In this document: positions 1 through 13,573 of the stretch, one piece after another | How the letters are laid out: each line of letters begins with the position of its first letter | Numbering within the stretch: the first letter of the stretch is position 1 | Source: an uncultured Candidatus Saccharibacteria bacterium | GTDB taxonomy: Bacteria; Patescibacteriota; Minisyncoccia; Phycocordibacterales; JACOZG01 | DNA: 64,000 nt | Assembly (NCBI GenBank): GCA_964648765.1 | Contig: CAZYLF010000003.1 | Location: 41,676-105,675 of the forward strand | Reading direction: 5' to 3' | Notes under the pieces: model-generated | Seen by the model: the letters and a program-made list of their open reading frames with translations, nothing else | Told to the model about the DNA's origin: nothing | Database searches by the model: none | Position numbers and translations under genes: made by a program

Positions 1-2469
1 CACTTGGAATGGTACTACTGAATCTAACAGCTCGTCATCTTCATCCGTGTCTCCTTGTTTGCTAACCAAAAACCTGGCAATCGAATTTCCACTTTTTGTA
101 CTTCCGACCAATTCAAAATCGTAGCCCGATGCCTGCAATTCATTTATTGCCTTATCTATCTCAACATCAAATTGGATCTGATTCTCAGATTTATCTATAC
201 CGATAATCCGGCCTTTTAGATTGTTATAGATTATTGGCGCAAACCTATCTGTTTCGTTAAAGAGGACGGGATCACCAATCTTGTAAGTTTGTATACCCCA
301 ATGCACAAGGGCATTTTCGTTGCTGCCTTGAAGAAACTTATTCAGATTGTTTATGCCGTACAGGCCGTCGTAATTTAAACAGAGAATTATTTCATCGTCC
401 TCTGGGGACTCAAAAATGGACTCGTTTAAAACGGTGGTATAGCCATTTCTCGTCATGCTTTCAAGAATATTGTCTTCAAGATTTCTAACCCTGTTCCAAA
501 ATTCAATCAGTTCTTTATTAGTAGTCCGATAAGGAACTGTCAGTTCGGATACAGCAGTCTTGGGTACAAAATATCGCGCAACATTAAACCAGTTTCCGAA
601 TATTATTGATTCTATCTGGAATACGTCACCAACTAATATTAAGGATTTGAACTTTGCCTTGTTCAAAACACCAATCATGTCTGTATTACTAACTGTGCTG
701 CACTCATCAATAATAAGAAGATCAAACTCTGTTTCAGTATTTCGATGAGACAGGAACTTAGCAATCGTTTGAAACGTGCTATTGGGTGCGTTTACCTTTC
801 TCTTCAAGTTATCGATAGCAGGATTGGTATTGGCTAAGTAAAGTTTTTGATTATCATTGAAAAAGTTTGATATGTGCTTTATCAATGTTGATTTTCCTGT
901 ACCCGCCGCACCATATATTAATGCCACCTCGGAATCTGCAAACATCTGTCTTAGGATTCTCTCCTTATCTTCGCAGTCAATTTGATATGCAGATAACTTC
1001 AGCCACGAGTCTACGGAATTCGAGTAGTTGTTTATACCATTCGATGATAACTCTTTAAGTTTTTTAATGATGTCTAAAGTATCTTTTTCATACCCGTTTA
1101 TATAAATAAAATCTTTGAAGGTTTCTAGCTTGCGATGTATGTGCTTGTAGTAGAGCTTTCTGTTGTAGGTGGCGATCAGATTTTCAGCCTCTTCCTTTGT
1201 CTTGGATAAGCCTTCTATAGGTGTATATAGTTTTCCCTTACTCTCTGTGTTGTCCTTTATCAATCTCGCAAAAAGTTCATGTTCTCGATCTGCCGCACTA
1301 ATACACTCAAAAACATCTGAGATCTTGGGATTGTGCCCTTTCAGTGAGGAGTTGAAAGGCATCGTATCGAATGGCTTACATCCAAGATTAAGATTCAAAT
1401 CTTCTCGAAGCTTGTATCCGCCATAATAGCTGCGCTGCAGCTTTATAATTCTATTATTTAAAGAGCGCAGTAAATATCTAACTACGTTAGTGCCAACTTC
1501 ATTACCCCTGACCAAGGCTTTGGCTTTCTCTAAAACATTCAAAAAATGTACTACCTGTACACCCTGAGCAATACGATTTTTTGCGCCATCATAGTAATCA
1601 TCTGGGAGATCAATAATTTCGACGAGACTTAGGCTAGTCTCTGTCAAAAAACTCATCAAATTTTTGTATTCCGCACTCTTTGACTGAACATCTATATTCT
1701 CGCCCAAAATGCGAGCAAAGTTGTTAAGTTCGCAGGGTCGAATGGAAACCTCCCATTTATCAATGATGTGAATAGGCATCTTTTTGCCCAAAACCTCAAT
1801 ATCGTCGTGTATTACAGAAAGCTTAACCGCGTAATTATCGGAAATATCTAGCTTGGTAAAAGCGATGACTCTATCAAACTTACTGATTTGTGCACTCGCT
1901 ATTGTAAAAGTGACTTCGTAGTATATTTCGTGCTTAACAAAAAGTGGTTTGATTTTTTGGATATAGTACCGATCTCTATAGGGGCTTACCTTTCTTGCTT
2001 TTGTTGGGTGTTCGATTCTCTCAACTATCTTTTCGTAGTATTCCTGCAAGGCAAGGTCAGTGTTTATCGGGAACTTATCGATATTACTTAAAACGTCTAA
2101 GCCATAGGTATTCTTGAGACGAGATTTAATCCTGATTAAATACTCATAATATTTCAACATTAGACGTTCCGAGTTTTCTTCGCTCTGTGTGTAGTGCGAC
2201 GCGACACCCTGCAAAAAATTATGAAACCTTCTCAGATATCCCAAAGACCCTTTTGGCTGCAATCTATTTGGAGCGTTTATTAAACCATCAGACGTAATCT
2301 CTATATCTTGTCCGTTAGCTTCTTCTTTTAAGGCAATATGCTCGACGAAGTTCCTAAGCTGAGACAGGATATTCTGCGACAAAAGACCTCTTTCTGAGGC
2401 GTGGAATTTATCGATATTTTTACAGATTGCTGTATCGATAGTTAGTATTTCGCTATCCAGTCTATTCAT
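1..2469 (-). CDS. Superfamily-1B (RecD/Pif1-like) helicase with ~500-aa N-terminal domain of unknown function; C-terminus runs off window start (partial)
   Basis: Continuous minus-strand frame from ATG at 2467-2469 down to position 1. It is absent from the ORF track because it has no stop in the window. My translation shows Walker A YGAAGTGKST, Walker B LLIIDECS, motif III LILVGDVFQIESI (GDxxQ) and a RecD-type C-terminal segment IGDPVLFNETDRF...NLKGRIIGID. A TATAAT box lies ~10 nt upstream of the ATG. Confidence 0.6.
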   Translation of the reverse strand, partial: MNRLDSEILTIDTAICKNIDKFHASERGLLSQNILSQLRNFVEHIALKEEANGQDIEITSDGLINAPNRLQPKGSLGYLRRFHNFLQGVASHYTQSEENSERLMLKYYEYLIRIKSRLKNTYGLDVLSNIDKFPINTDLALQEYYEKIVERIEHPTKARKVSPYRDRYYIQKIKPLFVKHEIYYEVTFTIASAQISKFDRVIAFTKLDISDNYAVKLSVIHDDIEVLGKKMPIHIIDKWEVSIRPCELNNFARILGENIDVQSKSAEYKNLMSFLTETSLSLVEIIDLPDDYYDGAKNRIAQGVQVVHFLNVLEKAKALVRGNEVGTNVVRYLLRSLNNRIIKLQRSYYGGYKLREDLNLNLGCKPFDTMPFNSSLKGHNPKISDVFECISAADREHELFARLIKDNTESKGKLYTPIEGLSKTKEEAENLIATYNRKLYYKHIHRKLETFKDFIYINGYEKDTLDIIKKLKELSSNGINNYSNSVDSWLKLSAYQIDCEDKERILRQMFADSEVALIYGAAGTGKSTLIKHISNFFNDNQKLYLANTNPAIDNLKRKVNAPNSTFQTIAKFLSHRNTETEFDLLIIDECSTVSNTDMIGVLNKAKFKSLILVGDVFQIESIIFGNWFNVARYFVPKTAVSELTVPYRTTNKELIEFWNRVRNLEDNILESMTRNGYTTVLNESIFESPEDDEIILCLNYDGLYGINNLNKFLQGSNENALVHWGIQTYKIGDPVLFNETDRFAPIIYNNLKGRIIGIDKSENQIQFDVEIDKAINELQASGYDFELVGSTKSGNSIARFLVSKQGDTDEDDELLDSVVPFQV

Positions 2470-2663
2470 AACTAGAATTATACTGTGAGTAGATTAATTT
2501 GGGCCACTGTCGGGGATACAAAATAAAATCTCTCTACCCCTCTAGATACTTCGATACTTCTCTAGGCTGCTGACCGACTAGGACTAGAATTAAACCCAAA
2601 TTACGCCCAAACTATATACCTAAGATGGGAATTGTCCAATGATTTTGCGAGGAGAGATCGGGT

Positions 2664-3107
2664 CTAAATCCTCCGGCTATCGTAGGCCCAGTGGAGGAGG
2701 GCTTGGCGTTGCACCGGGCGACACAGAGTGTCGCCCGGACGGCAGTTGTGGGCAATTTGGGCCAGGTGGCGGCGCATGTTTTGCCAGCGTTTAATTTGTC
2801 TCTCATCCTCTTTTGGCAAACGTCGGCCGAGATAATAACGGCAATACCACTCAAACCACCCCCGCGGATCCACCTCATTGATCCAACCCTTCTTCTGCCA
2901 CACGGCCAGCGATTGGCTCGCATTAACGCCAAAATAATTTAATTCTTTATGCCGCTTACCATCCGGCGAGAGTTTAGCCTTGCGCCACCAACTCTTAGGA
3001 TACTCAGCAGGCTTATCGCCAAAATATAGCCCACCAAACACGCCGAGCTCAAGCATCTCCTTGGGCGTTAAGTCCGGTTTAAAATCTGGGTGGAATGGCT
3101 TCATCAA
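2664..3107 (-). CDS. Conserved hypothetical small protein (W/Y/R-rich, motif GWFEWYCRYYLGRR); GC-rich gene
   Basis: 147-aa ORF with no overlapping alternative of similar quality. GC content is far above the window average. Confidence 0.35.
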   Translation of the reverse strand: MMKPFHPDFKPDLTPKEMLELGVFGGLYFGDKPAEYPKSWWRKAKLSPDGKRHKELNYFGVNASQSLAVWQKKGWINEVDPRGWFEWYCRYYLGRRLPKEDERQIKRWQNMRRHLAQIAHNCRPGDTLCRPVQRQALLHWAYDSRRI

Positions 3108-3159
3108 TCTGATTCTACAACCTCCTCACCTCTTCGGCGAGTTATGCTAGGATAAAGTT

Positions 3160-4431
3160 ATGAAAAATGAGGGTGGGAAAATAGAGGAAATAGTGTGGGA
3201 TGTGGCCGTGATTGGCGGTGGGCCAGCGGGCATGATGGCGGCCGCGCGCGCGGCGGAACGTGGCGCGCGGGTTGTGTTGCTTGAGAAGAATGAGGGCTTG
3301 GGTAAAAAGCTCTTAATCACCGGTGGTGGGCGTTGCAATGTGACCAATGGCGAACACGACGACCGCAAACTGCTGGAGAAGTTTGGCGAGGCGGGTAAAT
3401 ATCTTTTCTCCACCTTCTCACAATGGAGTGTAGACGAGACTTTAAACTTTTTCTGGAGTCGCGGGATGCAGACTTGGGTGGAGAATGAGTTGCGCATCTT
3501 CCCTCTCTCCAACAAGGCCGAGAGCGTGTGGCAAGTGTTGGTGGATTATCTTAAACAAAATAAAGTTGAAATAATTTCAAAAGCTGAAGTGATTGGGCTA
3601 GAGCAAAAAAATGGTTTAGTAACTGGCGCAATTTTAAAAAATAAAAAGGTGATAAGGGCTAAAAACTTTATCTTAGCCACTGGTGGCAAGTCGCACCCCG
3701 AGACGGGCTCCACTGGCGAAGGCTTCGCTTGGCTGGCCACGCTCGGTCACACCATCATCAATCCCACCGCCTCACTTGTGCCTATTAAGTCGCGCGATGA
3801 GTGGGTCAAAAAGTTGCAAGGCGTCACGCTCAAAGATATTAAAATTACTTTGTATCAAAATGGTGTTAAGCAAACTAAGCCGAAGGTAGGTAAAATCCTC
3901 TTCACTCATTTTGGCGTCAGTGGCCCTACGATCCTAAACCTAAGCTCCGAGGTTGGCGAGCTACTTAAATATGGCGAAGTGATAATTTCTCTCGACCTCT
4001 TCCCTAAACTTAGTCACGAGACAGTGGATGATATGTTGCAAAAGATCCACACCGAGCACAGTGCCAAAATGTTAAAAAATAGTTTAGCTGAATTTATTAT
4101 GCCTGCGCTGGTGAGCGGCGTGCTCGAGATGGCGCAAGTTAACGGCAACGCCTTCGGTCACACGCTCGGGCGTGAGTCTCGACTTGAGGTGGTTAAAACT
4201 CTTAAAGCTCTCCCCATCCGCGTGAGTGGTTTGCTCGGAGAAGATAAGGCCATTGTGACCTCCGGCGGCGTGAAGCTAGATGAAGTTAACTTTAAAACTA
4301 TGAGCTCCCGCCTCATCCCCAATCTCCACCTTGTCGGCGACCTCTTAAACATCAACCGCCCCAGCGGCGGCTTCAGTCTCCAACTCTGCTGGACCACCGG
4401 TTATGTGGCCGGGAATTCCATATTAATTTAG
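3160..4431 (+). CDS. NAD(P)/FAD-dependent oxidoreductase, HI0933/BaiN-like flavoprotein family
   Basis: N-terminal dinucleotide fold DVAVIGGGPAGMMAAARAAERGARVVLLEKN followed by GGGRCNVTN. 423 aa is typical for this family. GC-rich, with an internal AT-rich segment at 3540-3680. Confidence 0.7.
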   Translation: MKNEGGKIEEIVWDVAVIGGGPAGMMAAARAAERGARVVLLEKNEGLGKKLLITGGGRCNVTNGEHDDRKLLEKFGEAGKYLFSTFSQWSVDETLNFFWSRGMQTWVENELRIFPLSNKAESVWQVLVDYLKQNKVEIISKAEVIGLEQKNGLVTGAILKNKKVIRAKNFILATGGKSHPETGSTGEGFAWLATLGHTIINPTASLVPIKSRDEWVKKLQGVTLKDIKITLYQNGVKQTKPKVGKILFTHFGVSGPTILNLSSEVGELLKYGEVIISLDLFPKLSHETVDDMLQKIHTEHSAKMLKNSLAEFIMPALVSGVLEMAQVNGNAFGHTLGRESRLEVVKTLKALPIRVSGLLGEDKAIVTSGGVKLDEVNFKTMSSRLIPNLHLVGDLLNINRPSGGFSLQLCWTTGYVAGNSILI

Positions 4432-4752
4432 AATTACAACTAGGATTTTAATAACAATATAAATAAGTAAAATAAATTCGAGAGCGTGGCGAAGAAAGTG
4501 GAACTTTAGATCATCAGCAACTGTGCCTGAATGCATATATAGTTCAAAATGTTCAGCAAGCCGACCGACAAGCGATAAGACTAAAGCCGCAAACAATGTT
4601 CCTCTAAAAATGAACGGAGTCATAAGCGCGAGACCATCTGCTCCCAGCAGATGAGGCAACACTTTGATCAGCCAATAAAATTCTGAAATAAAAACGTAAG
4701 CCGTAACGACAATTATCGTTACTTTTTTTACTGAATTAGTTGCTCTGCCCAT
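4423..4752 (-). CDS. Hypothetical small membrane protein
   Basis: 109-aa ORF with two or three hydrophobic helices. Only ORF evidence. Confidence 0.3.
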   Translation of the reverse strand: MGRATNSVKKVTIIVVTAYVFISEFYWLIKVLPHLLGADGLALMTPFIFRGTLFAALVLSLVGRLAEHFELYMHSGTVADDLKFHFLRHALEFILLIYIVIKILVVILN

Positions 4753-4793
4753 TTTTATTTATCTTAACATAATTAACAACTTACGAAATAATT

Positions 4794-4830
4794 AAAAAAC
4801 ACCCCGAGATACATAAAGCATCTCGGGGTG
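4794..4830 (-). terminator. Rho-independent terminator downstream of cupin gene
   Basis: Hairpin CACCCCGAGAT...ATCTCGGGGTG followed by a T-run on the minus strand. Confidence 0.55.
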
Positions 4831-4860
4831 GTCTGCGTTTAACTCATCAAGTGACATCTA

Positions 4861-5577
4861 CTAATGATAATGAACGTCATCCATACTGAAGCTTGGTGAA
4901 CACAAGCAGAGCGCCACCAAGTACTGATCGTTGTTGTTGCGGATTGCGTGAGGTGAGCCAGTGCTAATCTCCACCCAATCACCAGCCATCGCCTGTCCGA
5001 TCTCTCCATCAACCTCGATCACGCCCGAACCCTCCACCACATACACAAACTCTGTGGTCCGCTGGTGATAATGCGGTTTTTTGTGCCGGGCTGGATCATT
5101 GATCACCCAACCGAAGGCCAAACTCAAATTGAGGCTGGGGAAGTCGTAGGGGATGATCTTGGCGCCGTCAAAGCACTCAACGACGGCTGGGAGGAGATGT
5201 GGCTCGCTCACTGGTCGCCAGTGACTTTGCTCACCCAACACTTGCACATCGGTAGGGTCAAACGGTGGTAGGGCCAACACCAAATGCTCCAAGCTGGTGG
5301 CACCGGTGTTAAAAAACTGATGCGGCGTCTTGGCGGGGATAGAGATCACAGAACCGGCCTGCACCTGGTAGGACTGACTACCGATCACCAAATTGCCACA
5401 ACCCCGAGTGATGGCATAAACCTCGACCATCCGCTCGTGCTGATGGAGGAGGGAAAAAGCACCGGGATTCATCAGGACGTGGGCTACACTCATAAAGGGA
5501 TCTCGATAAACTTCCCTCAGTAACTGATCGCACACATTGGCCGCTAGCGGCAGGGCGGGGACACTGATTTTCTTCAC
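4861..5577 (-). CDS. Bicupin (two cupin domains) protein
   Basis: Two cupin metal-binding motifs: HQHERMVEVYAITRGCG and HYHQRTTEFVYVVEGSG. GC-rich. Confidence 0.55.
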   Translation of the reverse strand: MKKISVPALPLAANVCDQLLREVYRDPFMSVAHVLMNPGAFSLLHQHERMVEVYAITRGCGNLVIGSQSYQVQAGSVISIPAKTPHQFFNTGATSLEHLVLALPPFDPTDVQVLGEQSHWRPVSEPHLLPAVVECFDGAKIIPYDFPSLNLSLAFGWVINDPARHKKPHYHQRTTEFVYVVEGSGVIEVDGEIGQAMAGDWVEISTGSPHAIRNNNDQYLVALCLCSPSFSMDDVHYH

Positions 5578-5732
5578 TCTTTGCTCCTATGTTAGAGATC
5601 TGATCGTTCCTATTTAGATCCTACCTGATTACCTCACTCTTTACAACTAGGTCCAAAGTCTGTATTTAAATTAAAATCGCCACGCACCGCATGGTGCATG
5701 GCGATTGTGTGACGGTGATTAAGATTTGCGTC

Positions 5733-6254
5733 TCAATCCCCTGTCTTCACTTCTTCCTTTTTCTTCTCACCCTTAAACGCATCCTTGATGATACCTGTTG
5801 CTTTTACTGCGCCGTTGGCCGCACCAGTGAATGCACCTTCAACAATGTTGCCAGTAACCTTACCCGCGTTATCGCGGATCCCTGCGCCAATGCCAGCAAA
5901 ATTGTTGACCTTTCTGTAGGCAATGAGATCATCATTGCTCCCAAATTGACAATCTTTGCCGGCACTCCTGACAGTAAAATTTTCCTTTACAGCGGATACG
6001 GGGTAAAGAACCTTGATCTTTGTGCCCCACGGATCAATGTCAGCAATCGCGTCACCAGCAGCATGGTCGTAACCTGCACCATCTCGCTTGGTCTCCAAGA
6101 TGTCTGCGGTGTGACTTACCAGGGCTCGCGCGGTGGCGTTCTTGGCGCGATCTTCTGCGCCGCTGAACCAGAGAAATAGAGCAACAACACACGCGGCCAT
6201 AAGGGCGACAGCAGTTAAAATAGCACTTGATCCAGAATTACGAGTGTTCGACAT
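5733..6254 (-). CDS. Hypothetical membrane-anchored/exported protein (Gly/Ala-rich ectodomain)
   Basis: Start reassigned to the internal ATG at 6254 (MSNTRNSGSSAILTAVALMAACVVALFLWF). It is preceded by a GGAGG RBS and followed by an N-terminal TM/signal anchor. Confidence 0.4.
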   Translation of the reverse strand: MSNTRNSGSSAILTAVALMAACVVALFLWFSGAEDRAKNATARALVSHTADILETKRDGAGYDHAAGDAIADIDPWGTKIKVLYPVSAVKENFTVRSAGKDCQFGSNDDLIAYRKVNNFAGIGAGIRDNAGKVTGNIVEGAFTGAANGAVKATGIIKDAFKGEKKKEEVKTGD

Positions 6255-6413
6255 TCCAAATCCTCCCAAATTAAGGTCCACACCAGGCCAACATTTGGCC
6301 TTTTTATCAACTTCGACTATAGCATTATTACCTCCAATTGTCAAATACCATATCACCGGCGACCTAGCCACCAGATTAAAAACTGCAATCAACGAGATCG
6401 ATAAGATTTTAGT

Positions 6414-6449
6414 TTAAAAAAACAGCAGGAACGTAGTGGTTCCTGCTGT
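6414..6449 (-). terminator. Rho-independent terminator after Ubl-E1-JAB-E2 operon
   Basis: Hairpin CAGCAGGAAC-gtagtg-GTTCCTGCTG followed by a T-run on the minus strand. Confidence 0.55.
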
Positions 6450-6475
6450 AGTAACATAACAATCAAAACAAAGAG

Positions 6476-6757
6476 CTAATTCCCCCGAATCTTGGCAATA
6501 GCAAGAATTGTGTCACCAGACTCAACAAAGTCATCTAGACTGGCCTCTTGCCCATTACGCTGAAGTTCACATTTGTCGATATTCTTAATTCCGACTTTTG
6601 TGAAAAGTTCACGAATGCTGATCTTTTTTGTTATCGGAACCTCCTTGATCTCTCCAGGAATTTTTCCGATACTAACAATTGCATCTTTCTGAATAATGCG
6701 CACATCAGGCAAACTTTCAACCGGCTCTTCCATAAATTCCTTTATCCTATTGCTCAT
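6476..6757 (-). CDS. ThiS/MoaD-like beta-grasp ubiquitin-like protein, C-terminus ...SGDTILAIAKIRGN (Gly followed by one Asn)
   Basis: 93 aa. The C-terminal region resembles the MoaD/ThiS ending dGDEvaiiPPVsGG. AAGGAG RBS 7 nt upstream of the ATG. It is the last gene of the E2-JAB-E1 operon. Confidence 0.5.
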   Translation of the reverse strand: MSNRIKEFMEEPVESLPDVRIIQKDAIVSIGKIPGEIKEVPITKKISIRELFTKVGIKNIDKCELQRNGQEASLDDFVESGDTILAIAKIRGN

Positions 6758-6783
6758 TTGATTCTCCTTTCAGAATCTGAGGT

Positions 6784-7467
6784 TCAGTAACTTTTACTAA
6801 GAACCATCAAGGGTGACAAAGAAACAATCGCCTCATTTGCAAACTTTTTGTTGTTCACAAAGTTGATCATTGTAAACACTGCCATACCAGCCAAAGTGGC
6901 TACGGTTGGTGCAATTGCCCTTCTCGTACAGGCACTTTCTTCCGCTTCGGCATCAGAATACAGGGTTTTTTCATAAGCTGCAATCTGTTGCGGCATCGCT
7001 GGCTTGATAGCGTAGATTCTCCCCCCTTCAGCTTCCATTCGTGTCTCAATCATCAGGTCAACTTTTAGTTGCAAGCGAATTGAGGATTCCCAAATTGTCT
7101 TCCTACTTTCCATTGTGTCGGTAAGTACGAAAACAATTCCCTTAAGCGATCCCTTGGTAAACTTCTTAGAGACCGTTTTGATCTTGATGCCAGTGCCGGC
7201 TTCAACTGCTTCGGCCAAGGCTTCGACTTTCTTTTTTCCGACATCTCCAAGGCCAAAGACCTGATTTGGCAGATTATGATTCTCTACCTCATCAAAGTCA
7301 TAGACTGTGATGTCTTTACACCCCATCTTGGCCAAGAGCCAAACGATGTAGGAGCCGGTTGCACCGACGCCGATCACCGTGATTGGTTTCTTGAAGTTTG
7401 ACGGAGAAAAGATGTCGAGCTGGCGCCAATAGTCAGGTTCACTTTTTACGGTTTTTCCGCGCGGCAT
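6784..7467 (-). CDS. E1-like ThiF/MoeB-family adenylyltransferase
   Basis: Rossmann motif ITVIGVGATGSYIVWLLAKMG, followed by DFDEVENHNL. A C-terminal ESACTRRAIAPTV segment matches the E1 catalytic-Cys region. Start set at the ATG with an AGGGAGG RBS (7467); the ORF track start at 7548 is further upstream. Confidence 0.7.
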   Translation of the reverse strand: MPRGKTVKSEPDYWRQLDIFSPSNFKKPITVIGVGATGSYIVWLLAKMGCKDITVYDFDEVENHNLPNQVFGLGDVGKKKVEALAEAVEAGTGIKIKTVSKKFTKGSLKGIVFVLTDTMESRKTIWESSIRLQLKVDLMIETRMEAEGGRIYAIKPAMPQQIAAYEKTLYSDAEAEESACTRRAIAPTVATLAGMAVFTMINFVNNKKFANEAIVSLSPLMVLSKSY

Positions 7468-8107
7468 TTTTTCCTCCCTTCTCATAGAATGAGCCAGCTT
7501 TGACCTTGTCCTTAATCTCTTTGGCAATCGCTTTGCGCCGTTTGTCATCTCCGAGATGCATTTGCCAAGGACAATCGGTGATTTTTACATTTTTTGTGTA
7601 ATCAAAAAAATCGAAAACACATTTTCCTTCTCGAGTAAAAATACCACGGATAAAAAATGGATTGTGAGCAAATAGCTCCATCTGGTCATCATCCTGACCT
7701 GAAGGTTCAGTCATGTCCCCAGGATGCAAATGTCCCCAGAAAAGTAGGGAATTAAGAATTTTTTTGTTTGCTGTATCCCTTTGCAACATATCAGTGTAGA
7801 ACTTGCCAATACTTGCTTGATCAAACTCACAATGAGTGCCACTCACTTGCTGATCAAAAAGGAATACCTTTTCGATGAGATAATGGCCGTCATCCAATTT
7901 ATTAACCGTACCGAGCCAACCCACCTCATCGTTACCTGCGGCCTCCATGATGTAGTGCGTATCGGTATACGCCTCAAGTGACAAGAGAATGGTTGGGGTT
8001 ACGACTTCGACCATCGATTGGATTTGCGGTTCTGCCTCGTGAGGGAACAACGGTTTGACTGGTTCCTCCTCAAGTAACATTCCATGGTTTTGACTTGATG
8101 ACCTCAT
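7439..8107 (-). CDS. JAB/MPN (JAMM) metallo-isopeptidase
   Basis: Complete JAMM motif: upstream Glu (HCEFDQ) followed by HLHPGDMTEPSGQD (HxHx7Sx2D). The start ATG overlaps the E2 gene stop (ATGA). Confidence 0.75.
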   Translation of the reverse strand: MRSSSQNHGMLLEEEPVKPLFPHEAEPQIQSMVEVVTPTILLSLEAYTDTHYIMEAAGNDEVGWLGTVNKLDDGHYLIEKVFLFDQQVSGTHCEFDQASIGKFYTDMLQRDTANKKILNSLLFWGHLHPGDMTEPSGQDDDQMELFAHNPFFIRGIFTREGKCVFDFFDYTKNVKITDCPWQMHLGDDKRRKAIAKEIKDKVKAGSFYEKGGKNAARKNRKK

Positions 8108-9018
8108 TCTTTTTTCTCCTTTCGTTTAGAGATTTTCTTTTCAGAAACTGGCCAATTACTAATTTCTGAATATGGTCCATAGAAACTCGATTTCTCATAA
8201 CTCTTAAGGTACTGAATGCAGACCATTATTACAGCGGGGTACTTGTGCTCAGCAATCATATGGGGAATAACTTCCTGAATATTACCGAGACAAGGTTTAC
8301 CTTCATGATTAACGTGTGGATGGTGATTTCTGCTCCCATATCCATCACTAGCGGAATTTGTTCGATTTATCATCCTCACCCCACCCCGTTCGCCAAGTGT
8401 ATTGATTGTGATCTTGAATTTTCCAATTTCATAATCAACTCGATTGTATCTAATAGTTATCGGTCCTGTGTAGACCAAAATGTTCTTTCCACTAACCTCA
8501 ATCCTCTCAATATCGGGATGCTTAAGTAGACCATTAAATTCATCACCGAATCTTGCGAGCGCGGCATCATCAGTGCCAGAAACAGCTGTAAGCTGTTGCT
8601 GTTTTTCTTCCATTTTACGCAAAAGAGTAACAAGTTGTTCTTGGGATTTTTCAACGGCCGACCGCAGTCTTGATGTCTCGTGCTTGAGAGTACGTAAACG
8701 CTCAGCCTTGCGGTTGTAGCCGCAAAGTTCCATGTATTTGCGCTTCAAGGTGTCATTAGGACTTTTCTTGGACTTCCGTTTGACATCCACATTGCCATTA
8801 TTACTGAATCTGGCCAAATATACGCCCCGGTAGTTCGTCTTAACTTTTGAAATTTGCCGCTCGGTAACACCAAGAATGCCGCAAACTTCACCAAGATCTT
8901 CCATTGGGATCGCCTTGCACACCGTCCCATTAATACTAAGACGGGTGGTTTTGATCCCAGCTAGACTAGCGCCATTTAGACTTTTTTCCGAAAACGCAAT
9001 GAGTGTTTTAGCCTCCAT
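8104..9018 (-). CDS. E2-like (UBC-fold) conjugating enzyme with N-terminal HTH-like domain and central coiled coil
   Basis: The C-terminal half has a beta-rich segment followed by HHPHVNHEGKPCLGNI, which resembles the E2 HPN-x(5-8)-Cys active-site signature. The N-terminus has an HTH-like LGEVCGILGVTERQISK. The middle (RKAERLRTLKHETSRLRSAVEKSQEQL) is a heptad-rich coiled coil. Confidence 0.5.
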   Translation of the reverse strand: MEAKTLIAFSEKSLNGASLAGIKTTRLSINGTVCKAIPMEDLGEVCGILGVTERQISKVKTNYRGVYLARFSNNGNVDVKRKSKKSPNDTLKRKYMELCGYNRKAERLRTLKHETSRLRSAVEKSQEQLVTLLRKMEEKQQQLTAVSGTDDAALARFGDEFNGLLKHPDIERIEVSGKNILVYTGPITIRYNRVDYEIGKFKITINTLGERGGVRMINRTNSASDGYGSRNHHPHVNHEGKPCLGNIQEVIPHMIAEHKYPAVIMVCIQYLKSYEKSSFYGPYSEISNWPVSEKKISKRKEKKE

Positions 9019-9147
9019 TTTACCATCCTTCTCCTTTCTTTTTTGAATTATTGATTGTCAAAAACCTTTAATTTAGAGCTTTTTAGGCCCCAAACCTCTG
9101 TTATGATCCAAGCATAAAAAATTAAATTTGTAAAGAGAGTTTGGAAT

Positions 9148-9801
9148 TCATGATTTTATTATATCAGCCTCAGTTAGTTCAAGTTTAAGTTCTTTAAGAA
9201 AAGTATGTAAGAATTTGGTTCTGCGTTTGGCAATCTTTTTGGCAAGTTTTGTATGCATACGCTTTTCTGCAACCAAAAGTCGTTTGTAAAACAAAGCCAC
9301 GCCAGATGCGGAATTTAATTCCGCGGCCTCATTAAGCGGATTGTCAGGATTGTAAAAACCTCTGTTCATCTGACCGCCAGAAGAAAAGGTTCTGATAATT
9401 GAAATGGCACCGGTGGACTCCAACAAATCAGCATCCTGGAGAACTTTGGACTCCAAAAGTTCTGGCATTATCGCTTTTGAAAATGAGCATTGTTTAATGC
9501 AAGTTACTACATCTTTAATTTTATGCTTTGGGTATTCGCTAATCCCCTCCAAAATTTGTGTGGCCACATCAGCACTCTCATCAGTTTCGTTTTTACTTTG
9601 TGGTGAATCTTTACGGTAAACTACCGTGTCGTGGAAGAGCGCAGCTGGGATAACCACCTCAAGATCCGCACCCACACTCTCACCGATTTTAATCGCCATA
9701 TTTAACACTCGACTTATATGTTCAAAATCGTGAGACGGATCTTCCTTGGTCTGCCTCTCTTTAGCAATCAGTTTTAATTTATCAAAAACTTTTGGGTTCA
9801 T
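9148..9801 (-). CDS. HD-domain metal-dependent phosphohydrolase
   Basis: H...HD signature (HDFEHISRVL ... ALFHDTV) and a later D residue; 217 aa. Confidence 0.65.
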   Translation of the reverse strand: MNPKVFDKLKLIAKERQTKEDPSHDFEHISRVLNMAIKIGESVGADLEVVIPAALFHDTVVYRKDSPQSKNETDESADVATQILEGISEYPKHKIKDVVTCIKQCSFSKAIMPELLESKVLQDADLLESTGAISIIRTFSSGGQMNRGFYNPDNPLNEAAELNSASGVALFYKRLLVAEKRMHTKLAKKIAKRRTKFLHTFLKELKLELTEADIIKS

Positions 9802-9804
9802 AAT

Positions 9805-10317
9805 TCATTTAGCGTTTAGTGCTTTTAAACCGGCGATGTCGGGCTGGTCTATGTGTTCTCGCCCCACCAACATCTCTTTATTTTTGATAATAAGTTCTTT
9901 GGAAAGGAGCGGAAGTTTGAATCCTAAAAATTCCACTACCTCAATATCAGGGAAACCATTTTTATAAAAATTCACGTACTTATTTGTTTCTTTGTCGAGG
10001 ATATTCATCTCAGCCATCGGGCAGATGTCTATAACTATTCCCCCGACGGTAATTTCCACATTGTAGTTATCATAATTTTGATCTACAAAATGTTCAAGCG
10101 GACTTGTGATTCTCAACTCAACGAGTTTTAAGAATTCCGCAAAGACAGGATCATCTTTTGAAGTCTCGATATCAATATCGATGTCTGTTAGCTTGCGAGG
10201 TACGCCATACACATAACAAGCAAATCCGCCCGTGATGCACCAACGCAAGTTTAATTTATCCAAGATTGGAATAATAAACGAGAGCGCTTCGTGGACCTTT
10301 TGCTGCTGCGGATTCAT
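9805..10317 (-). CDS. Small nucleotidyltransferase-fold protein (Pol-beta superfamily)
   Basis: hG[GS]-x(9-13)-DhDh signature: ITGGFACYVYGVPRKLTDIDIDIETS. 170 aa, sits 3 nt upstream of the HD gene. Confidence 0.45.
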   Translation of the reverse strand: MNPQQQKVHEALSFIIPILDKLNLRWCITGGFACYVYGVPRKLTDIDIDIETSKDDPVFAEFLKLVELRITSPLEHFVDQNYDNYNVEITVGGIVIDICPMAEMNILDKETNKYVNFYKNGFPDIEVVEFLGFKLPLLSKELIIKNKEMLVGREHIDQPDIAGLKALNAK

Positions 10318-10320
10318 TTA

Positions 10321-10391
10321 CTGCCGGCCAGGGACTCGAACCCCAATACCCGCCTCCAAAGGGCGGTGTCCTACCATTAGACGAGCCGGCA
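10321..10391 (-). tRNA. tRNA-Gln (anticodon UUG)
   Basis: Hand-folded cloverleaf with 7-bp acceptor (U1:A72), D-stem GTCT/GGAC and anticodon stem CCGCC/GGCGG. Loop CTTTGGA gives anticodon TTG. T-loop is TTCGAGT and the discriminator is G73. U1:A72 plus G73 are classical Gln identity elements. CCA is not encoded. Confidence 0.8.
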
Positions 10392-10476
10392 AAGACCCTA
10401 ATAATCTACCAATCTATGAGCCGATTGTACAGAGATTGAAATGGCGAGAGTGAAGATGATAGAGTAGAACGATATA

Positions 10477-11440: not shown

Positions 11441-12667
11441 ATGGATACCAAGAAAAATGTCTTTTTATGGACCCTTTACGATTTTGCAAACTCGCTTGTT
11501 TCAATCGTCTTCTTTTTATATTTTGCTCAATGGATCGTGGTAGATAGAGGGCTAGCAGACATCTACTTTAACCTCACTTTTACCGTGGCGGCATTGTTGC
11601 TACTCCTCACCGTGCCAGTTACGGGCTTTTTGCTCGACAAATACTTCAGGCGAATCACGGGCTTAAGATACACCACCTTTGCCACCTCCTTGCTTTATGG
11701 CGCCTGCGCGCTGTCGGCAATTCTTAATAAAGACATCCCGGCATTAATCTTCTTCACCCTTGGACTCTACTCATACCTTTTAACATTCACTTTTTATACA
11801 CCACTTATTAATGACATCTCAAAGCCAGAAAAAATAGGCAAGATCTCAGGCCTAGGAATTGCAGCAAACTACCTGGGGCAATTTACCGGCTTACTCATCG
11901 TTTTGCCATTTTCAAACGGAACGTTTAGTTGGTTTGGTTCGGCAGCTCGCGCCGAGACTTTGCTACCGGCGGTTATCGCCTTTACCATTCTCGCGCTCCC
12001 AATGCTCATATGGTTTAAAGAACCTAAAAAGGAAAAGGTGACCTTCAAATTTAAATCTGAGCTTAAGGGGATGCTAGCAGAAACAAAAAAGCTCTTTTTA
12101 TTCCCCGGCGTGGCGCTCTTTATGTTGGCGTACTTTTTATTTAATGATGCTGTCCTCACAGCGTCCAACAACTTTCCGCTTTTTCTTGAGCAAGTGTGGG
12201 CTGTTTCAGACACGGTAAAAACTTACATTCTCTTAGGAATTATTTTTACCTCCGCAATTGGTGGATTAATTTCTGGAGTTATTGCCGATCGCTTTGGTCA
12301 CAAAAGGACACTCGTATTTATCACAGCCGGGTGGATTTTTATTCTTCCGTTTATTGGATTTATAAATAACTTTACGCTCTTGATTGTTGCCACAACTATT
12401 ATGGGATTGTGGTTTGGTTCCAACTGGGCCGTGTCTCGATCGGTGATGTCGTATCTCGCGCCGCCGCAAGGGCACAATCTTGCCTTTGCCTATTTTGGAT
12501 TAGTGGAGCGGGCGTCGTCTTTTGTGGGGCCGATTGTGTGGGGTCTCGTGGTCACCAGCTTTGTGTCAATTGGCAGTGATAGATATAGATTTGCCACGCT
12601 GGCCGTGACGTTATTTATTGCGCTTGGATTAATTGTATTATTAAAAGTAAAAAGCGACCGCGCCTAA
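11441..12667 (+). CDS. MFS-type transporter (12 predicted TM helices)
   Basis: 408 aa, alternating hydrophobic helices throughout, and a DRFGHKR-like cytoplasmic loop motif. Confidence 0.55.
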   Translation: MDTKKNVFLWTLYDFANSLVSIVFFLYFAQWIVVDRGLADIYFNLTFTVAALLLLLTVPVTGFLLDKYFRRITGLRYTTFATSLLYGACALSAILNKDIPALIFFTLGLYSYLLTFTFYTPLINDISKPEKIGKISGLGIAANYLGQFTGLLIVLPFSNGTFSWFGSAARAETLLPAVIAFTILALPMLIWFKEPKKEKVTFKFKSELKGMLAETKKLFLFPGVALFMLAYFLFNDAVLTASNNFPLFLEQVWAVSDTVKTYILLGIIFTSAIGGLISGVIADRFGHKRTLVFITAGWIFILPFIGFINNFTLLIVATTIMGLWFGSNWAVSRSVMSYLAPPQGHNLAFAYFGLVERASSFVGPIVWGLVVTSFVSIGSDRYRFATLAVTLFIALGLIVLLKVKSDRA

Positions 12668-13150: not shown

Positions 13151-13573
13151 ATGGAAATTAATTATTTGGCGGTGTTGGTGTGTGGGGTGGCGGCTTTGGT
13201 GATTGGATCCATTTGGTATGGACCACTTTTTGGCAAAGCATGGATGAAGATTATGGGCGTGGAAAATATGAGTGAAGAGCAGAAGCAAGTGATGAAGAAA
13301 GGTATGTGGATGATGTACTTGGCCCAATTTATTATCTCGCTCATCACAGCCGGAGTGCTCGCGGTGCACATTGCTTATTGGTCTGATCCTTCTTATTCAG
13401 CTATCGGCATCGCCATCTGCACTTGGTTTGGCTTCATCCTCACCACCGACGCTCAAGCGGCCCTCTGGAGTGGCAAGCCTAAAAATGTGGCTTGGAAGAT
13501 GTTCTTCATCAACGCCGGCGGCCAACTCGTCACCTTCGCCATCTTCGGTTTGATCCTCGGCGCTTGGATGTAG
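13151..13573 (+). CDS. Small membrane protein (DUF1761-like: IWYGPLFGKAW motif)
   Basis: 140 aa, 4 hydrophobic helices. The family assignment is from memory of the motif and is tentative. Confidence 0.4.
   Translation: MEINYLAVLVCGVAALVIGSIWYGPLFGKAWMKIMGVENMSEEQKQVMKKGMWMMYLAQFIISLITAGVLAVHIAYWSDPSYSAIGIAICTWFGFILTTDAQAALWSGKPKNVAWKMFFINAGGQLVTFAIFGLILGAWM

What the first reader, a model, noticed from the sequence alone, without database searches (positions are those of the whole stretch)
1..10391. Compositionally mosaic 10-kb block ending at tRNA-Gln: candidate genomic/defence island
From the window start to tRNA-Gln (10321-10391), AT-rich genes alternate with GC-rich ones. The AT-rich genes are the helicase, the Ubl-E1-JAB-E2 operon and the HD and NTase genes. 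The GC-rich genes (2664-4431, 4861-5577) have composition and codon usage that differ markedly from the housekeeping genes. tRNA genes are classical integration sites, so this looks like an accreted accessory region. In it, an SF1 helicase, an HD hydrolase and a small nucleotidyltransferase sit next to the Ubl-conjugation operon.
Basis: partly seen in the sequence, partly recalled or inferred. Interest (0 to 1): 0.5.

Follow-up and report, generated by a model that had tools for sequence, protein, structure and literature searches.

The report
Accessory gene patchwork with ubiquitin-like cassette
The first 10 kb of this window is not one island inserted at tRNA-Gln but part of a larger patchwork of separately acquired accessory genes in a tiny-genome (CPR/Patescibacteria) bacterium, and its most interesting piece is a compact, unannotated ubiquitin-like protein-tagging cassette also found on large phage contigs.

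Summary
They are an SF1 helicase, an E2-JAB-E1-Ubl operon, an HD hydrolase, a small nucleotidyltransferase and tRNA-Gln.

The composition claim is only partly right. Three genes (2664-3107, 3160-4431, 4861-5577) are true GC3 outliers, at +3.1 to +4.2 SD. The 'AT-rich' genes sit at the genome baseline. Comparable heterogeneity runs at least 7 kb left of the window and out to about 27 kb on the right.

tRNA-Gln is not a boundary. I found no integrase, no repeat of the tRNA 3' end and no change in composition at that point.

No close relative was available, so presence or absence could not be tested. Homologues of three anchor genes all sit in unrelated contexts.

The region does hold two independently mobile conflict-type modules:
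- A PDC-S53 helicase, with 45-53% identical copies on plasmids of other phyla.
- A self-contained E2-JAB-E1-Ubl cassette. I confirmed it by fold and motifs, and it is not Bil, Bub or CBASS. Relatives lie in unrelated CPR chromosomal sites, three of them on the 3' side of different tRNAs, and on at least 15 viral contigs.

Verdict: this is an accreted flexible region, not a discrete tRNA island. The cassette is a new variant of prokaryotic ubiquitin-like conjugation.

The parts
1..2469 (-). SF1B (RecD/Dda-like) helicase, 903 aa in full. The last 242 nt of the gene (including the stop codon) lie beyond the window start. It is a PADLOC candidate single-gene defence system, PDC-S53.
   Evidence: PADLOC PDC-S53 E=0, 1145 bits, profile 1-817/900. 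AAA_30 and Viral_helicase1. phrog_325 Dda-like helicase, 6.5e-72. Full length read on the source contig L001. 45-53% identical full-length copies on plasmids of other phyla. Codon-choice z = -7.9 and tetranucleotide z = +6.5.
2664..3107 (-). 147-aa protein with no family match; GC3 outlier.
   Evidence: No hit in Pfam, NCBIfam, PADLOC, PHROGs or PDB. GC3 0.601, +3.6 SD.
3160..4431 (+). HI0933-like FAD/NAD(P) flavoprotein; GC3 outlier.
   Evidence: PF03486 8.6e-75. GC3 0.573, +3.1 SD. A 45% homologue lies 1.9 kb upstream of a Nudix homologue in L062.
4423..4752 (-). 109-aa hydrophobic protein, AT-rich (GC3 0.30).
   Evidence: No family match.
4800..4830 (-). Terminator-like hairpin after the bicupin gene.
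   Evidence: 13-bp stem followed by a T run.
4861..5577 (-). Bicupin protein; the strongest GC3 outlier inside the block.
   Evidence: Two Cupin_2 stretches, 1.2e-27. GC3 0.636, +4.2 SD.
5675..5706 (-). REP-like palindrome that also looks like a terminator. Two further copies lie on the source contig.
   Evidence: (family D1).
5733..6356 (-). Membrane-anchored protein with a weak resemblance to the GspG pseudopilin. The true start is probably at 6254, downstream of a near-consensus promoter-like site at 6344-6316.
   Evidence: T2SSG match is weak, E=0.049. Not conserved next to other cassettes.
6422..6449 (-). Terminator-like hairpin that closes the Ubl cassette.
   Evidence: 11-bp stem followed by a T run, 27 nt after the Ubl stop codon.
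6476..6757 (-). Ubiquitin-like protein of 93 aa. It has a beta-grasp domain ending in ...AKIRGN, so Gly92 is followed by a single Asn.
   Evidence: AF2 pLDDT 78.8. Foldseek hits to Mth1743/ThiS-like, TtuB, NEDD8, SUMO, ubiquitin and SAMP1, all at probability 1.0. G92 and N93 are nearly invariant in 15 homologues.
6784..7467 (-). Single-domain ThiF-type E1 of 227 aa (an alternative upstream ATG lies at 7548).
   Evidence: PF00899 3.7e-23. Invariant GxGATGS and Cys180. It is the most conserved cassette protein, 59-90% identical across the loci aligned (tblastn 63-89%). phrog_15670, 8e-24.
7439..8107 (-). JAB/JAMM metallopeptidase of 222 aa.
   Evidence: PADLOC JAB 4.2e-5. E61, H126, H128, S136 and D139 (E...HxHx7SxxD) are invariant in 6 homologues.
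8104..9018 (-). E2-like protein of 304 aa. It has an N-terminal beta-rich domain, then a long coiled coil, then a C-terminal UBC fold with HPH...Cys243.
9148..9801 (-). YedJ-like HD phosphohydrolase with native-like composition.
   Evidence: PF01966. NF007515 1.9e-38. GC3 0.362, -0.8 SD. Absent next to other cassettes and other NTase homologues.
9805..10317 (-). Small pol-beta-fold nucleotidyltransferase of 170 aa, resembling ANT(2''). Its ATG lies 2 nt after the tRNA-Gln 3' end.
   Evidence: At least 180 Patescibacteria homologue clusters of 165-175 aa at 55-78% identity cover 98-100% of the ORF. This supports the long ORF over the 135-aa gene call.
10320..10392 (-). tRNA-Gln(UUG) with no encoded CCA. 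Its 3' end faces the block.
   Evidence: ARAGORN. Rfam 53.4 bits. Sequence read.

Best explanation
Bases 1-10391 are one slice of a larger flexible, accessory part of a Patescibacteria (CPR) chromosome. That part runs from at least -7.3 kb to about 27 kb in window coordinates. Genes of different origin have accumulated there one module at a time, and the slice is not a single element integrated at tRNA-Gln.

The slice has four independent layers:
1. A PDC-S53-type SF1B helicase that moves between phyla.
2. Three GC3-rich metabolic or unknown genes (a 147-aa protein, an HI0933-like flavoprotein and a bicupin). They were probably acquired from donors with higher GC. That is an inference from composition only.
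3. A self-contained E2-JAB-E1-Ubl cassette (9018-6476) with its own terminator.
4. A native-looking NTase and HD pair that abuts the tRNA.

Inferred mechanism of the cassette:
- The JAMM peptidase removes the terminal Asn of the 93-aa pro-Ubl and exposes Gly92.
- The single-domain ThiF-type E1, probably a homodimer, adenylates Gly92.
- The Ubl passes as a thioester to Cys243 of the canonical-type E2, either directly or via E1 Cys180.
- The E2's variable N-terminal domain and coiled coil choose the target protein, so no E3 is needed.
- The JAB may also reverse the conjugation.

By analogy with Bil, the targets would be proteins of an invading phage. Because the same cassette family is common on viral contigs, it may equally serve phage-against-phage or phage-against-host conflict.

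Shown here: the folds, the motifs, the operon structure, the portability of the cassette and its presence on viral contigs.
Inferred: the enzymology, the targets and the biological role.
For: Larger mosaic:
- GC3 dispersion is equal on both sides of the tRNA (SD 0.101 against 0.089, Levene p=0.76) and greater than in the core (0.055; p=0.027 and 0.039).
- Tetranucleotide deviation is z +4 to +6.5 from -7.3 kb to 5.7 kb, +2.2 to +3.4 out to about 9.7 kb, about 0 at 7.7-13.7 kb, and about +4 at 12.7-16.7 kb and 20.7-24.7 kb.

No integration signature.

Independent mobility:
- Helicase homologues sit on plasmids of Sporosarcina, Phocaeicola, Arthrobacter, Lactiplantibacillus and Rhodococcus at 45-53% identity over the full length.
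- The cassette is conserved as E2-JAB-E1-Ubl in the loci with enough flank (L050, L053, L073, L075, L064, L071; L055 is cut off within the E1 gene). None shares a neighbour with the window.
- The cassette ends at a strong terminator.

Cassette identity:
- E2 has a UBC fold.
- Ubl has a beta-grasp fold.
- The JAMM motif is invariant.
- E1 has an invariant ATP motif and Cys.
- The Ubl C-terminus is Gly-Asn.

E2 as specificity factor:
- Identity falls in the order E1 > JAB > Ubl > E2: 83/77/73/59% in L073 and 89/80/60/56% in L075.
- There are 2-3 E2 paralogues per locus in L055, L064 and L077.
- 3541 representative clusters share the coiled-coil and UBC module under unrelated N-termini.

Link to viruses:
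- 8 IMG/VR contigs were found through E1.
- 15 IMG/VR contigs were found through the HPHx4GxPCLGN DNA motif, and all were confirmed by tblastn.
- L064 has Endo VII and transglycosylase neighbours.
- L071 has DUF5131, MT-A70 and Gad2 neighbours.
Against: - No close relative of this genome was available, so variable presence of any module at this site is not shown. All four contigs that carry the region have the same arrangement.
- The compositional tests use a 37-kb core from the same window as reference, not the whole genome. Windows inside that reference are biased toward low deviation.
- Only two conflict-type modules were found in about 34 kb, and neither has been tested experimentally. PDC systems are untested candidates (10.1101/2024.01.29.577857).
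- Three of six chromosomal cassettes lie on the 3' side of a tRNA: the window, L050 and L073. This leaves room for a tRNA-directed insertion process I could not detect.
- IMG/VR 'viral' calls are predictions.
Confidence: 0.65

Rival explanations
1. This is the first reader's model: a discrete genomic or defence island of about 10 kb or more that integrated site-specifically into the 3' end of tRNA-Gln. Its far boundary would lie left of the window.
For: - The tRNA's 3' end faces the block, and the next ORF starts 2 nt after it.
- The block contains a defence-candidate helicase and a portable Ubl cassette.
- Two other chromosomal cassettes also lie on the 3' side of tRNAs: tRNA-Ser in L050 and tRNA-Trp in L073.
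- In this clade another accessory gene, the MFS transporter, abuts tRNA 3' ends far more often than expected: 8/36 against 13/538, odds ratio 11.5, p=1.2e-5.
Against: - There is no integrase, recombinase or transposase from -7.3 kb to 27 kb.
- There is no copy of the tRNA 3' end, allowing up to 3 mismatches in 22 nt, in the window or in the 7.3 kb beyond it. No shared 11-mer exists except one chance match.
- The 2 kb nearest the tRNA (NTase, HD) have baseline composition, and the NTase belongs to a widespread Patescibacteria family.
- Atypical composition continues on the other side of the tRNA.
- A genuine tRNA-flanked element in a related genome (L065) does carry serine recombinases and a primase-polymerase. 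Such elements are therefore recognisable when present.
Confidence: 0.1
2. This is a decayed remnant of a large phage or prophage. The Ubl cassette, and perhaps the Dda-like helicase, are leftovers of a viral genome whose structural genes have been lost. They are not host defence genes.
For: - The cassette family is present on at least 15 IMG/VR contigs of up to 232 kb and on a 188-kb phage-like JGI contig. E1 identity to the window reaches 71%.
- E1 matches phrog_15670 and the helicase matches phrog_325 over its full length.
- The cassette region has a raised tetranucleotide deviation of +2.2 to +3.4.
Against: - There are no phage structural, packaging, lysis or integration genes anywhere from -7.3 to 27 kb.
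- The helicase and the cassette are separated by metabolic genes of different composition and on both strands.
- Several CPR chromosomal cassettes sit between core genes: IF-2/RbfA and Ddl in L050, and tRNA-Trp/rpmG and alanine racemase in L073. These look like single-module insertions rather than prophages.
- All four cassette ORFs are intact, and a strong terminator closes the cassette.
Confidence: 0.15
3. Nothing here is foreign. The pattern is ordinary gene-to-gene compositional scatter in a CPR genome, driven by amino-acid content and expression level. The gene neighbourhood is simply poorly conserved in a fast-evolving lineage.
For: - Other CPR loci show GC3 SDs of 0.05-0.09 over 20 kb.
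- Most genes of the block lie within about 1 SD of the core GC3.
- Some core genes also have deviant codon choice, with z down to -5.1.
- Homologues of MFS, Nudix and NTase at 70-82% identity all lack synteny. This shows that gene order is fluid in general.
Against: - Three genes exceed +3 SD in GC3, and the helicase is the strongest codon-usage and tetranucleotide outlier.
- The helicase has 45-53% identical homologues in distant phyla on plasmids.
- The cassette occurs on viral contigs and in unrelated chromosomal sites.
- GC3 dispersion is significantly larger than in the core of the same window.
Confidence: 0.1

Closest known systems
[quoted passage not shown]
   Same: Four separate genes encode a Ubl, an E2, a JAB/JAMM peptidase and an E1, with no E3. 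The Ubl has a conserved Gly followed by extra residue(s) that must be trimmed, as in Type II BilA. The E2 is the likely substrate selector. Bil operons are mobile and associated with defence (10.1101/2023.09.26.559546; 10.1101/2023.09.04.556158).
   Different: - Gene order is E2-JAB-E1-Ubl, not Ubl-E2-DUB-E1.
- E1 is a 227-aa single ThiF domain, not the multidomain IAD-AAD-CYS E1.
- The E2 profile does not match E. aridi BilB (hhalign E=0.8). It carries the classical HPN-type His before the Cys, whereas 6d/Bil E2s lack that His (PMC1779556).
- None of the PDB sequence searches for the four proteins returned a chain named as a Bil protein.
- The E2 has an N-terminal domain and a coiled coil.
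Eukaryote-like ubiquitin operons of archaea (Caldiarchaeum subterraneum type) and canonical eukaryotic E2s
   Same: The E2 has the classical UBC signature (HPx...Cys), and its best structural matches are canonical eukaryotic E2s. The Ubl model matches ubiquitin, NEDD8 and SUMO, and also Caldiarchaeum ubiquitin. A JAMM peptidase is encoded alongside.
   Different: No RING E3 is present. E1 is a minimal ThiF/MoeB-like protein without UFD or catalytic-cysteine domains. The best fold matches for the Ubl are ThiS- and TtuB-like. The hosts are CPR bacteria and phage-like contigs, not archaea.
Bub (6E) and Type II CBASS Cap2/Cap3 (6b) systems
   Same: They use ThiF-type adenylation with an E2-like domain and a peptidase, and they sit on mobile elements. 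In the window a pol-beta NTase lies 1.3 kb upstream of the E2, which superficially recalls the arrangement of the CBASS CD-NTase with Cap2 and Cap3.
   Different: - There are no E2-E1 or JAB-E1 fusions and no DUF6527. The E2 has a catalytic Cys, not the Ser of Bub (10.1101/2024.11.21.623953).
- PADLOC E1-E2 models match only the E1 part.
- The NTase is never linked to the cassette elsewhere, and other cassettes lack it.
PADLOC PDC-S53 (candidate single-gene defence helicase)
   Same: The match to the family model runs nearly end to end (1145 bits). The gene stands alone and is preceded by its own promoter-like site.
   Different: PDC families are untested candidates predicted by 'guilt by embedding' (10.1101/2024.01.29.577857). 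I found no functional data for S53. This is a CPR host.
Classical tRNA-linked genomic islands and integrative elements
   Same: Accessory genes of atypical composition lie on the 3' side of a tRNA gene.
   Different: There is no integrase, no att repeat, no compositional boundary at the tRNA and no defined far end.

Membership tests
tRNA-integrated genomic island | Integrase or recombinase gene next to the tRNA or at the island end | tested here: not met
   No such domain in any ORF from -7.3 kb to 27 kb. The positive comparator L065 shows serine recombinases next to tRNA-Ala.
tRNA-integrated genomic island | Direct repeat of the tRNA 3' end at the distal boundary | tested here: not met
   The 22-nt 3' end, allowing up to 3 mismatches, occurs only in the tRNA itself, both in the window and in L001. 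No shared 11-mer apart from one chance match from the anticodon stem. Sequence further left than -7.3 kb was not examined.
tRNA-integrated genomic island | Compositional discontinuity that coincides with the tRNA | tested here: not met
   Tetranucleotide z is about 0 across 7.7-13.7 kb. GC3 dispersion is equal on both sides.
tRNA-integrated genomic island | Variable presence among close relatives | tested here: inconclusive
   The nearest homologues of the MFS (82%), Nudix (74%) and NTase (78%) genes all lie in unrelated contexts. The four contigs that carry the region are identical in arrangement.
Defence island | Clustering of several recognised defence systems | tested here: inconclusive
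   There is one PADLOC candidate (PDC-S53) and one Ubl-conjugation cassette within 4 kb of each other. No other defence-type gene lies in about 34 kb; the only other PADLOC match is a weak one from the Nudix domain of the NrtR-like regulator (PDC-S07, 2.7e-7). Neither module has been validated.
PDC-S53 | Full-length match to the PADLOC family model | tested here: met
   E=0, 1145 bits, residues 6-828 against profile positions 1-817 of 900.
Bil (Type I/II BilABCD) | Multidomain E1 (IAD-AAD-CYS) | tested here: not met
   E1 is 227 aa with a single ThiF domain.
Bil (Type I/II BilABCD) | E2 homologous to BilB (CEHH type, with His after the Cys) | tested here: not met
   hhalign of the E2 profile against E. 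aridi BilB gives E=0.8. The E2 has the classical HPH motif before Cys243.
Bil (Type I/II BilABCD) | Gene order Ubl-E2-DUB-E1 | tested here: not met
   The order is E2-JAB-E1-Ubl in the window and in L050, L053, L064, L071, L073 and L075.
Bil (Type I/II BilABCD) | Ubl with a conserved C-terminal Gly plus a removable extension, and a JAMM peptidase | tested here: met
   ...IRGN, with G92 and N93 nearly invariant. The JAMM motif is invariant.
Bub (6E) | Ubl-E2 or E2-E1 fusions, the DUF6527 protease, and a catalytic Ser in the E2 | tested here: not met
   The genes are separate, Pfam gives no DUF6527 hit, and Cys243 is invariant.
Type II CBASS (6b) | CD-NTase functionally linked to a Cap2 E2-E1 fusion and a Cap3 JAB | tested here: not met
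   There is no fusion. The NTase gave no PADLOC match and is never adjacent to the cassette elsewhere.
Ubiquitin-like conjugation system (generic E1-E2-Ubl-DUB) | Beta-grasp Ubl with a C-terminal Gly; ThiF-type adenylating E1; UBC-fold E2 with a catalytic Cys; JAMM peptidase | tested here: met
   Catalytic activity cannot be tested with these tools.

The most novel reading that the evidence does not exclude
The E2-JAB-E1-Ubl cassette may represent a large, undescribed family of ubiquitin-like conjugation systems carried mainly by phages. Its features are:
- a canonical, eukaryote-type E2 (HPx...C) fused to hypervariable N-terminal targeting domains;
- a minimal ThiF-type E1;
- 3541 representative E2 clusters with no Pfam model;
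- 2-3 E2 paralogues on several of the loci examined.

On this reading, phages and CPR bacteria use these systems to tag each other's proteins. In the same CPR genomes, accessory genes may also be inserted preferentially right at tRNA 3' ends by a mechanism that needs no integrase.
Probability: 0.35. Interest if true: 0.7.

Novelty: new variant of a known kind. Interest (0 to 1): 0.42.

Why it matters
As an 'island' the finding is ordinary. It shows that composition plus a nearby tRNA is not enough to call an integrated element in CPR genomes, where gene order is fluid and tRNA genes are scattered.

The value lies in the embedded cassette. It is a compact four-gene ubiquitin-like conjugation system with a classical-type E2. 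No Pfam model matches its E2, JAB or Ubl, and only generic E1 and JAB models match in PADLOC, NCBIfam or PHROGs. It is shared between ultra-small CPR bacteria and viral contigs of up to about 230 kb.

If it is active, three things follow:
- It widens the known range of prokaryotic ubiquitination beyond Bil, Bub and CBASS.
- It offers a minimal E1-E2 pair for mechanistic work.
- It raises the question of whether phages use protein tagging offensively.

It would also add to the very short list of conflict systems known in CPR bacteria.

Tried and rejected
- Synteny through the MFS gene in 185,579 GTDB genomes gave 48 loci. None shared any neighbour with the window.
- Synteny through the Nudix gene in JGI metagenomes gave 6 loci and no shared context. 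The only exception is a distant flavoprotein-Nudix linkage in L062.
- Synteny through the closest NTase homologues (73-78% identity) showed unrelated contexts, with no tRNA-Gln and no YedJ-type HD.
- The exact tRNA-Gln sequence is absent from viral contigs.
- Flanking repeats around the cassette in the window, L050 and L073 showed nothing convincing.
- I considered NTase, HD and the cassette as one CBASS-like six-gene unit. I rejected this because the linkage is not conserved.
- Bil and Bub membership were rejected; see the membership table.
- Sequence searches of E2, JAB and Ubl against the PDB and against Pfam (E up to 10) gave nothing. Fold prediction was needed.
- A single-sequence E1 scan and the MFS scan of viral contigs found nothing. 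The broad E2 alignment was too divergent for the locus finder, so I replaced it with a degenerate DNA motif.
- GenBank phages contain no E2 relative. They contain only distant ThiF-like genes in crAss-like and Flavobacterium phages.
- The literature gave nothing on PDC-S53 or on phage or CPR ubiquitin-like cassettes.

Full report
**Organism and source.** The window comes from a Candidate Phyla Radiation (Patescibacteria/Parcubacteria-type) genome. Homologues of its MFS gene at 56-82% identity occur in 47 GTDB MAGs, many of them titled Parcubacteria, Patescibacteria or Saccharibacteria (others carry archaeal titles such as 'Woesearchaeota'). The closest named NTase homologues are from 'Parcubacteria group' and 'Taylorbacteria' MAGs. 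The source contig is 87.9 kb, from Logan SRR14271332. I retrieved part of it as L001, which extends the view 7.3 kb to the left of the window (window position = 13108 - L001 position).

**What is in 1-10391.** All genes are on the minus strand unless noted.
- An SF1B helicase at 1-2469. It is 903 aa in full and runs off the window.
- A 147-aa protein with no family match at 2664-3107.
- An HI0933-like flavoprotein at 3160-4431, on the plus strand.
- A 109-aa hydrophobic protein at 4423-4752.
- A bicupin at 4861-5577.
- A membrane-anchored protein weakly resembling the GspG pseudopilin at 5733-6356.
- A four-gene operon of E2 (8104-9018), JAB (7439-8107), E1 (6784-7467) and Ubl (6476-6757).
- A YedJ-like HD hydrolase at 9148-9801.
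- A 170-aa nucleotidyltransferase at 9805-10317.
- tRNA-Gln(UUG) at 10320-10392.

**Composition.** The 36 genes at 27-64 kb, which are mostly housekeeping genes such as HisRS, have GC3 of 0.407 +/- 0.054.
- The genes called AT-rich are not AT-rich. The helicase is 0.405, Ubl 0.394, E2 0.397, JAB 0.435, E1 0.500, HD 0.362 and NTase 0.439.
- The helicase stands out for another reason. It has the worst synonymous-codon fit in the window (z = -7.9) and the highest tetranucleotide deviation (z = +6.5).
- The mosaic does not stop at the tRNA. GC3 dispersion is 0.101 in the block, 0.089 at 10.4-27 kb and 0.055 in the core. Levene's test gives p=0.027 for block against core and p=0.76 for block against 10.4-27 kb.
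- A DUF1761 gene at 13151-13573 has GC3 of 0.638.
- Tetranucleotide deviation is raised from -7.3 kb to about 9 kb. It is at baseline over 7.7-13.7 kb, which covers HD, NTase, the tRNA, Nudix and MFS. It is raised again at 12.7-16.7 kb and 20.7-24.7 kb.
- Other CPR loci of 20 kb show GC3 SDs of 0.02-0.093.

The reference is only the core part of this window, so these z-scores are relative.

**Integration signatures.**
- No integrase, recombinase or transposase domain was found from -7.3 kb to 27 kb.
- The 22-nt 3' end of the tRNA, allowing up to 3 mismatches, occurs only once in the window and once in L001.
- The only shared 11-mer elsewhere is a chance match from the anticodon stem.
- To the left of the helicase lie a cupin gene, an NrtR-NAMPT-Nudix-NMNAT NAD-salvage cluster and DinB.
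- For contrast, a related genome (L065) has a recognisable element next to tRNA-Ala, with two serine recombinases and a primase-polymerase.

**Synteny.** The decisive test, presence or absence in close relatives, could not be done.
- MFS homologues in 48 genomes share no neighbour with the window.
- Nudix homologues of up to 74% identity in 6 metagenome contigs do not either.
- NTase homologues at 73-78% identity lie among small resistance-like genes (SRPBCC, VanZ, RibD_C, GNAT, AAA_33, HD_4). They are never next to tRNA-Gln or a YedJ-type HD.
- The only hint is L062, a 998-kb CPR contig. There a flavoprotein homologue (45%) lies 1.9 kb upstream of a Nudix homologue (51%), in the same orientation as in the window, where 6 kb of minus-strand genes separate them.
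- The four contigs that carry the window's own genes are identical in arrangement.

**The Ubl cassette: anatomy.** Only the E1 is recognised by Pfam (ThiF, 3.7e-23). E2, JAB and Ubl have no Pfam, NCBIfam or PDB sequence match, even at permissive thresholds.
This places Cys243 on the catalytic Cys85. P234, C243 and G245 are invariant across 47 diverse relatives, and H233 and H235 nearly so.
- *Ubl.* The model has pLDDT 78.8. It matches ThiS-like Mth1743, TtuB, NEDD8, SUMO, ubiquitin and SAMP1, all at probability 1.0. The family ends in AKIRGN, with Gly92 and Asn93 nearly invariant.
- *JAB.* It carries E61...H126-x-H128-x7-S136-x2-D139, invariant in six homologues.
- *E1.* It has an invariant GxGATGS motif and Cys180.
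- *Boundaries.* A strong terminator-like hairpin at 6449-6422 follows the Ubl stop. The next gene is preceded by a near-consensus promoter-like site at 6344-6316.

**The Ubl cassette: distribution.**
- The subfamily that shares the window's E2 N-terminus is small, with 18 clusters among 5.8 billion.
- In each locus with enough flank the order E2-JAB-E1-Ubl is kept and nothing else is shared with the window:
  - L050: tRNA-Ser, then two unknown genes, then the cassette, then ddl.
  - L053: the cassette starts 169 nt from the contig end.
  - L055: two tandem E2s, and the contig ends within the E1 gene.
  - L073: the cassette converges on tRNA-Trp and rpmG.
  - L075: TrmB-family regulators lie upstream.

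- Identity to the window falls in the order E1 > JAB > Ubl > E2, for example 83/77/73/59% in L073. That pattern is expected if the E2 selects the substrates.
- A profile search of 1.84 billion representatives finds 3541 clusters (223 at E<=1e-30). These carry the coiled-coil and UBC module at the C-terminus of proteins of 183-1072 aa with unrelated N-terminal regions. Ten long members have no Pfam hit.
- The family is clearly present on predicted viral DNA.
  - L064 is a 178-kb IMG/VR contig with three E2 paralogues, E1 at 71%, and Endo VII and transglycosylase neighbours.
  - L071 is a 188-kb phage-like JGI contig with DUF5131, MT-A70 and Gad2 neighbours.
  - Eight IMG/VR contigs were found through an E1 alignment.
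  - Fifteen IMG/VR contigs of 12-232 kb and GC 0.33-0.63 were found through the degenerate DNA motif for HPHx4GxPCLGN. All 17 stretches were confirmed as E2-like, and most have E1, with or without JAB, downstream. I estimate about 0.2 chance hits for that motif; this is my own calculation.
- Cultured-phage records in GenBank have no E2 relative.

**tRNA proximity.** Three of six chromosomal cassettes lie on the 3' side of a tRNA of different identity: Gln, Ser and Trp. Separately, the MFS gene abuts the 3' end of a same-strand tRNA in 8 of 36 genomes, involving seven different tRNAs, against 13 of 538 other ORFs. The odds ratio is 11.5 and Fisher p=1.2e-5. The NTase ATG lies 2 nt after tRNA-Gln and has the same geometry. 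So tRNA 3' flanks do appear to be preferred landing or expression sites for accessory genes in this clade.

**Helicase.** It matches PADLOC PDC-S53 nearly end to end and phrog_325, a Dda-like helicase. Full-length homologues at 45-53% identity lie on plasmids of Sporosarcina, Phocaeicola, Arthrobacter, Lactiplantibacillus and Rhodococcus. PDC families are untested candidates predicted from embedding in known systems (10.1101/2024.01.29.577857). I found nothing published on S53 itself. No other defence-type gene was found between -7.3 kb and 27 kb; the only other PADLOC match is a weak one from the NrtR-like regulator's Nudix domain.

**Most likely mechanism.** The region is an accretion of independent modules. 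For the cassette I infer the following steps:
- JAB trims Asn93.
- E1 adenylates Gly92.
- The Ubl is passed as a thioester to E2 Cys243, possibly via E1 Cys180.
- The E2's variable N-terminal region and coiled coil present the target, with no E3.
- JAB may also reverse the conjugation.

Bil systems tag a phage tail protein (10.1101/2023.09.04.556158), which makes defence the default reading for a chromosomal copy. The abundance of the family on viral contigs makes a phage-encoded offensive or inter-phage role equally possible. None of the enzymology was tested here.

**Comparison with known systems.** The cassette works like Bil but is not a member. The gene order differs. The E1 is a minimal ThiF domain rather than IAD-AAD-CYS. 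The E2 profile does not match BilB (E=0.8) and carries the classical His that 6d/Bil E2s lack (PMC1779556; 10.1101/2023.09.26.559546). It is not Bub, because there are no fusions, no DUF6527, and a Cys rather than a Ser in the E2 (10.1101/2024.11.21.623953). It is not CBASS Cap2/Cap3, because the upstream NTase is not linked to the cassette anywhere else. In E2 type it is closest to canonical eukaryotic and archaeal E2s, but it lacks a RING E3.

**Verdict.** The 'tRNA-Gln island' interpretation is only partly supported. As an island the finding is ordinary and its stated boundaries are not real. The embedded cassette is a new variant of prokaryotic ubiquitin-like conjugation, linked to phages and CPR bacteria, and it deserves its own follow-up.

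Noticed in passing
window 11441-12667; loci L005, L007, L008, L009, L012, L016, L025, L038: The Atg22-like MFS gene has 56-82% identical homologues in 47 MAGs, each in a different context. In 8 of 36 genomes its start codon lies -1 to 92 nt after the 3' end of a same-strand tRNA, involving seven different tRNAs. For other ORFs the figure is 13 of 538 (odds ratio 11.5, p=1.2e-5). This suggests that accessory genes in this clade are inserted at, or expressed from, tRNA 3' flanks.
   Followed up: partly
window 10317-10320: The NTase ATG lies 2 nt after the discriminator base of tRNA-Gln (...GGCAG-T-AA-ATG), leaving no room for a leader or a Shine-Dalgarno sequence. The public gene call (135 aa) cuts off the GG motif, whereas homologues support the 170-aa ORF. 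This implies co-transcription with the tRNA and possibly a leaderless mRNA after tRNA 3' processing.
   Followed up: partly
profile of window 8104-9018 (alignments A1, A5): The coiled-coil and UBC module defines a large family with no Pfam match: 3541 clusters at 50% identity, in proteins of 183-1072 aa with unrelated N-termini. Ten long members gave no Pfam hit.
   Followed up: partly
window 5675-5706; L001 19027-19055 and 20321-20349: A 29-nt REP-like palindrome (CCGCCATGCACCATACGGTGCATGGCGG) recurs three times in intergenic positions on the source contig. It also scores as a terminator.
   Followed up: no
L001 13979-20307 (window -871 to -7199): Left of the helicase lie a cupin gene, an NrtR-NAMPT-Nudix-NMNAT NAD-salvage cluster and DinB. 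Tetranucleotide deviation there is as high as in the block (z +4 to +5.8), so the atypical region extends beyond the window.
   Followed up: partly
window 13151-13573 and 14109-15122: A DUF1761 gene has GC3 of 0.638 (+4.3 SD). A DraG-like ADP-ribosylhydrolase has GC of 0.525. Both are compositional outliers to the right of tRNA-Gln.
   Followed up: no
L062 6789-10519: In a 998-kb CPR contig a flavoprotein homologue (45%) and a Nudix homologue (51%) are 1.9 kb apart, in the same orientation as in the window, where 6 kb of minus-strand genes lie between them. This may be an ancestral adjacency.
   Followed up: partly
L065 786-9270: A related genome has a clear integrated element next to tRNA-Ala, with two serine recombinases, a Prim-Pol/AAA_25 primase and an AAA_15 ATPase. 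It lies just upstream of the NTase homologue's gene cluster.
   Followed up: no
L050 8643-8703: The 3' end of tRNA-Ser (GTTCAAATCCCTCCCTCA) is repeated in inverted orientation 25 nt downstream, just before the genes that lead into the Ubl cassette. It could be a terminator or a recombination scar.
   Followed up: no
L071 12704-13606; L064 and L077: The phage-like contig L071 carries a Gad2 (anti-Gabija) homologue 2.4 kb downstream of its Ubl cassette. The viral contigs L064 and L077 carry 3 E2 paralogues each, and L078 has two tandem Ubl genes.
   Followed up: partly
window 6784-7467: ThiF-like genes at about 32% identity, annotated as 'thiamine biosynthesis protein', occur in 80 GenBank phage records, mainly crAss-like Bacteroides phages and Flavobacterium phages. 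No detectable E2 relative is present in those records.
   Followed up: no
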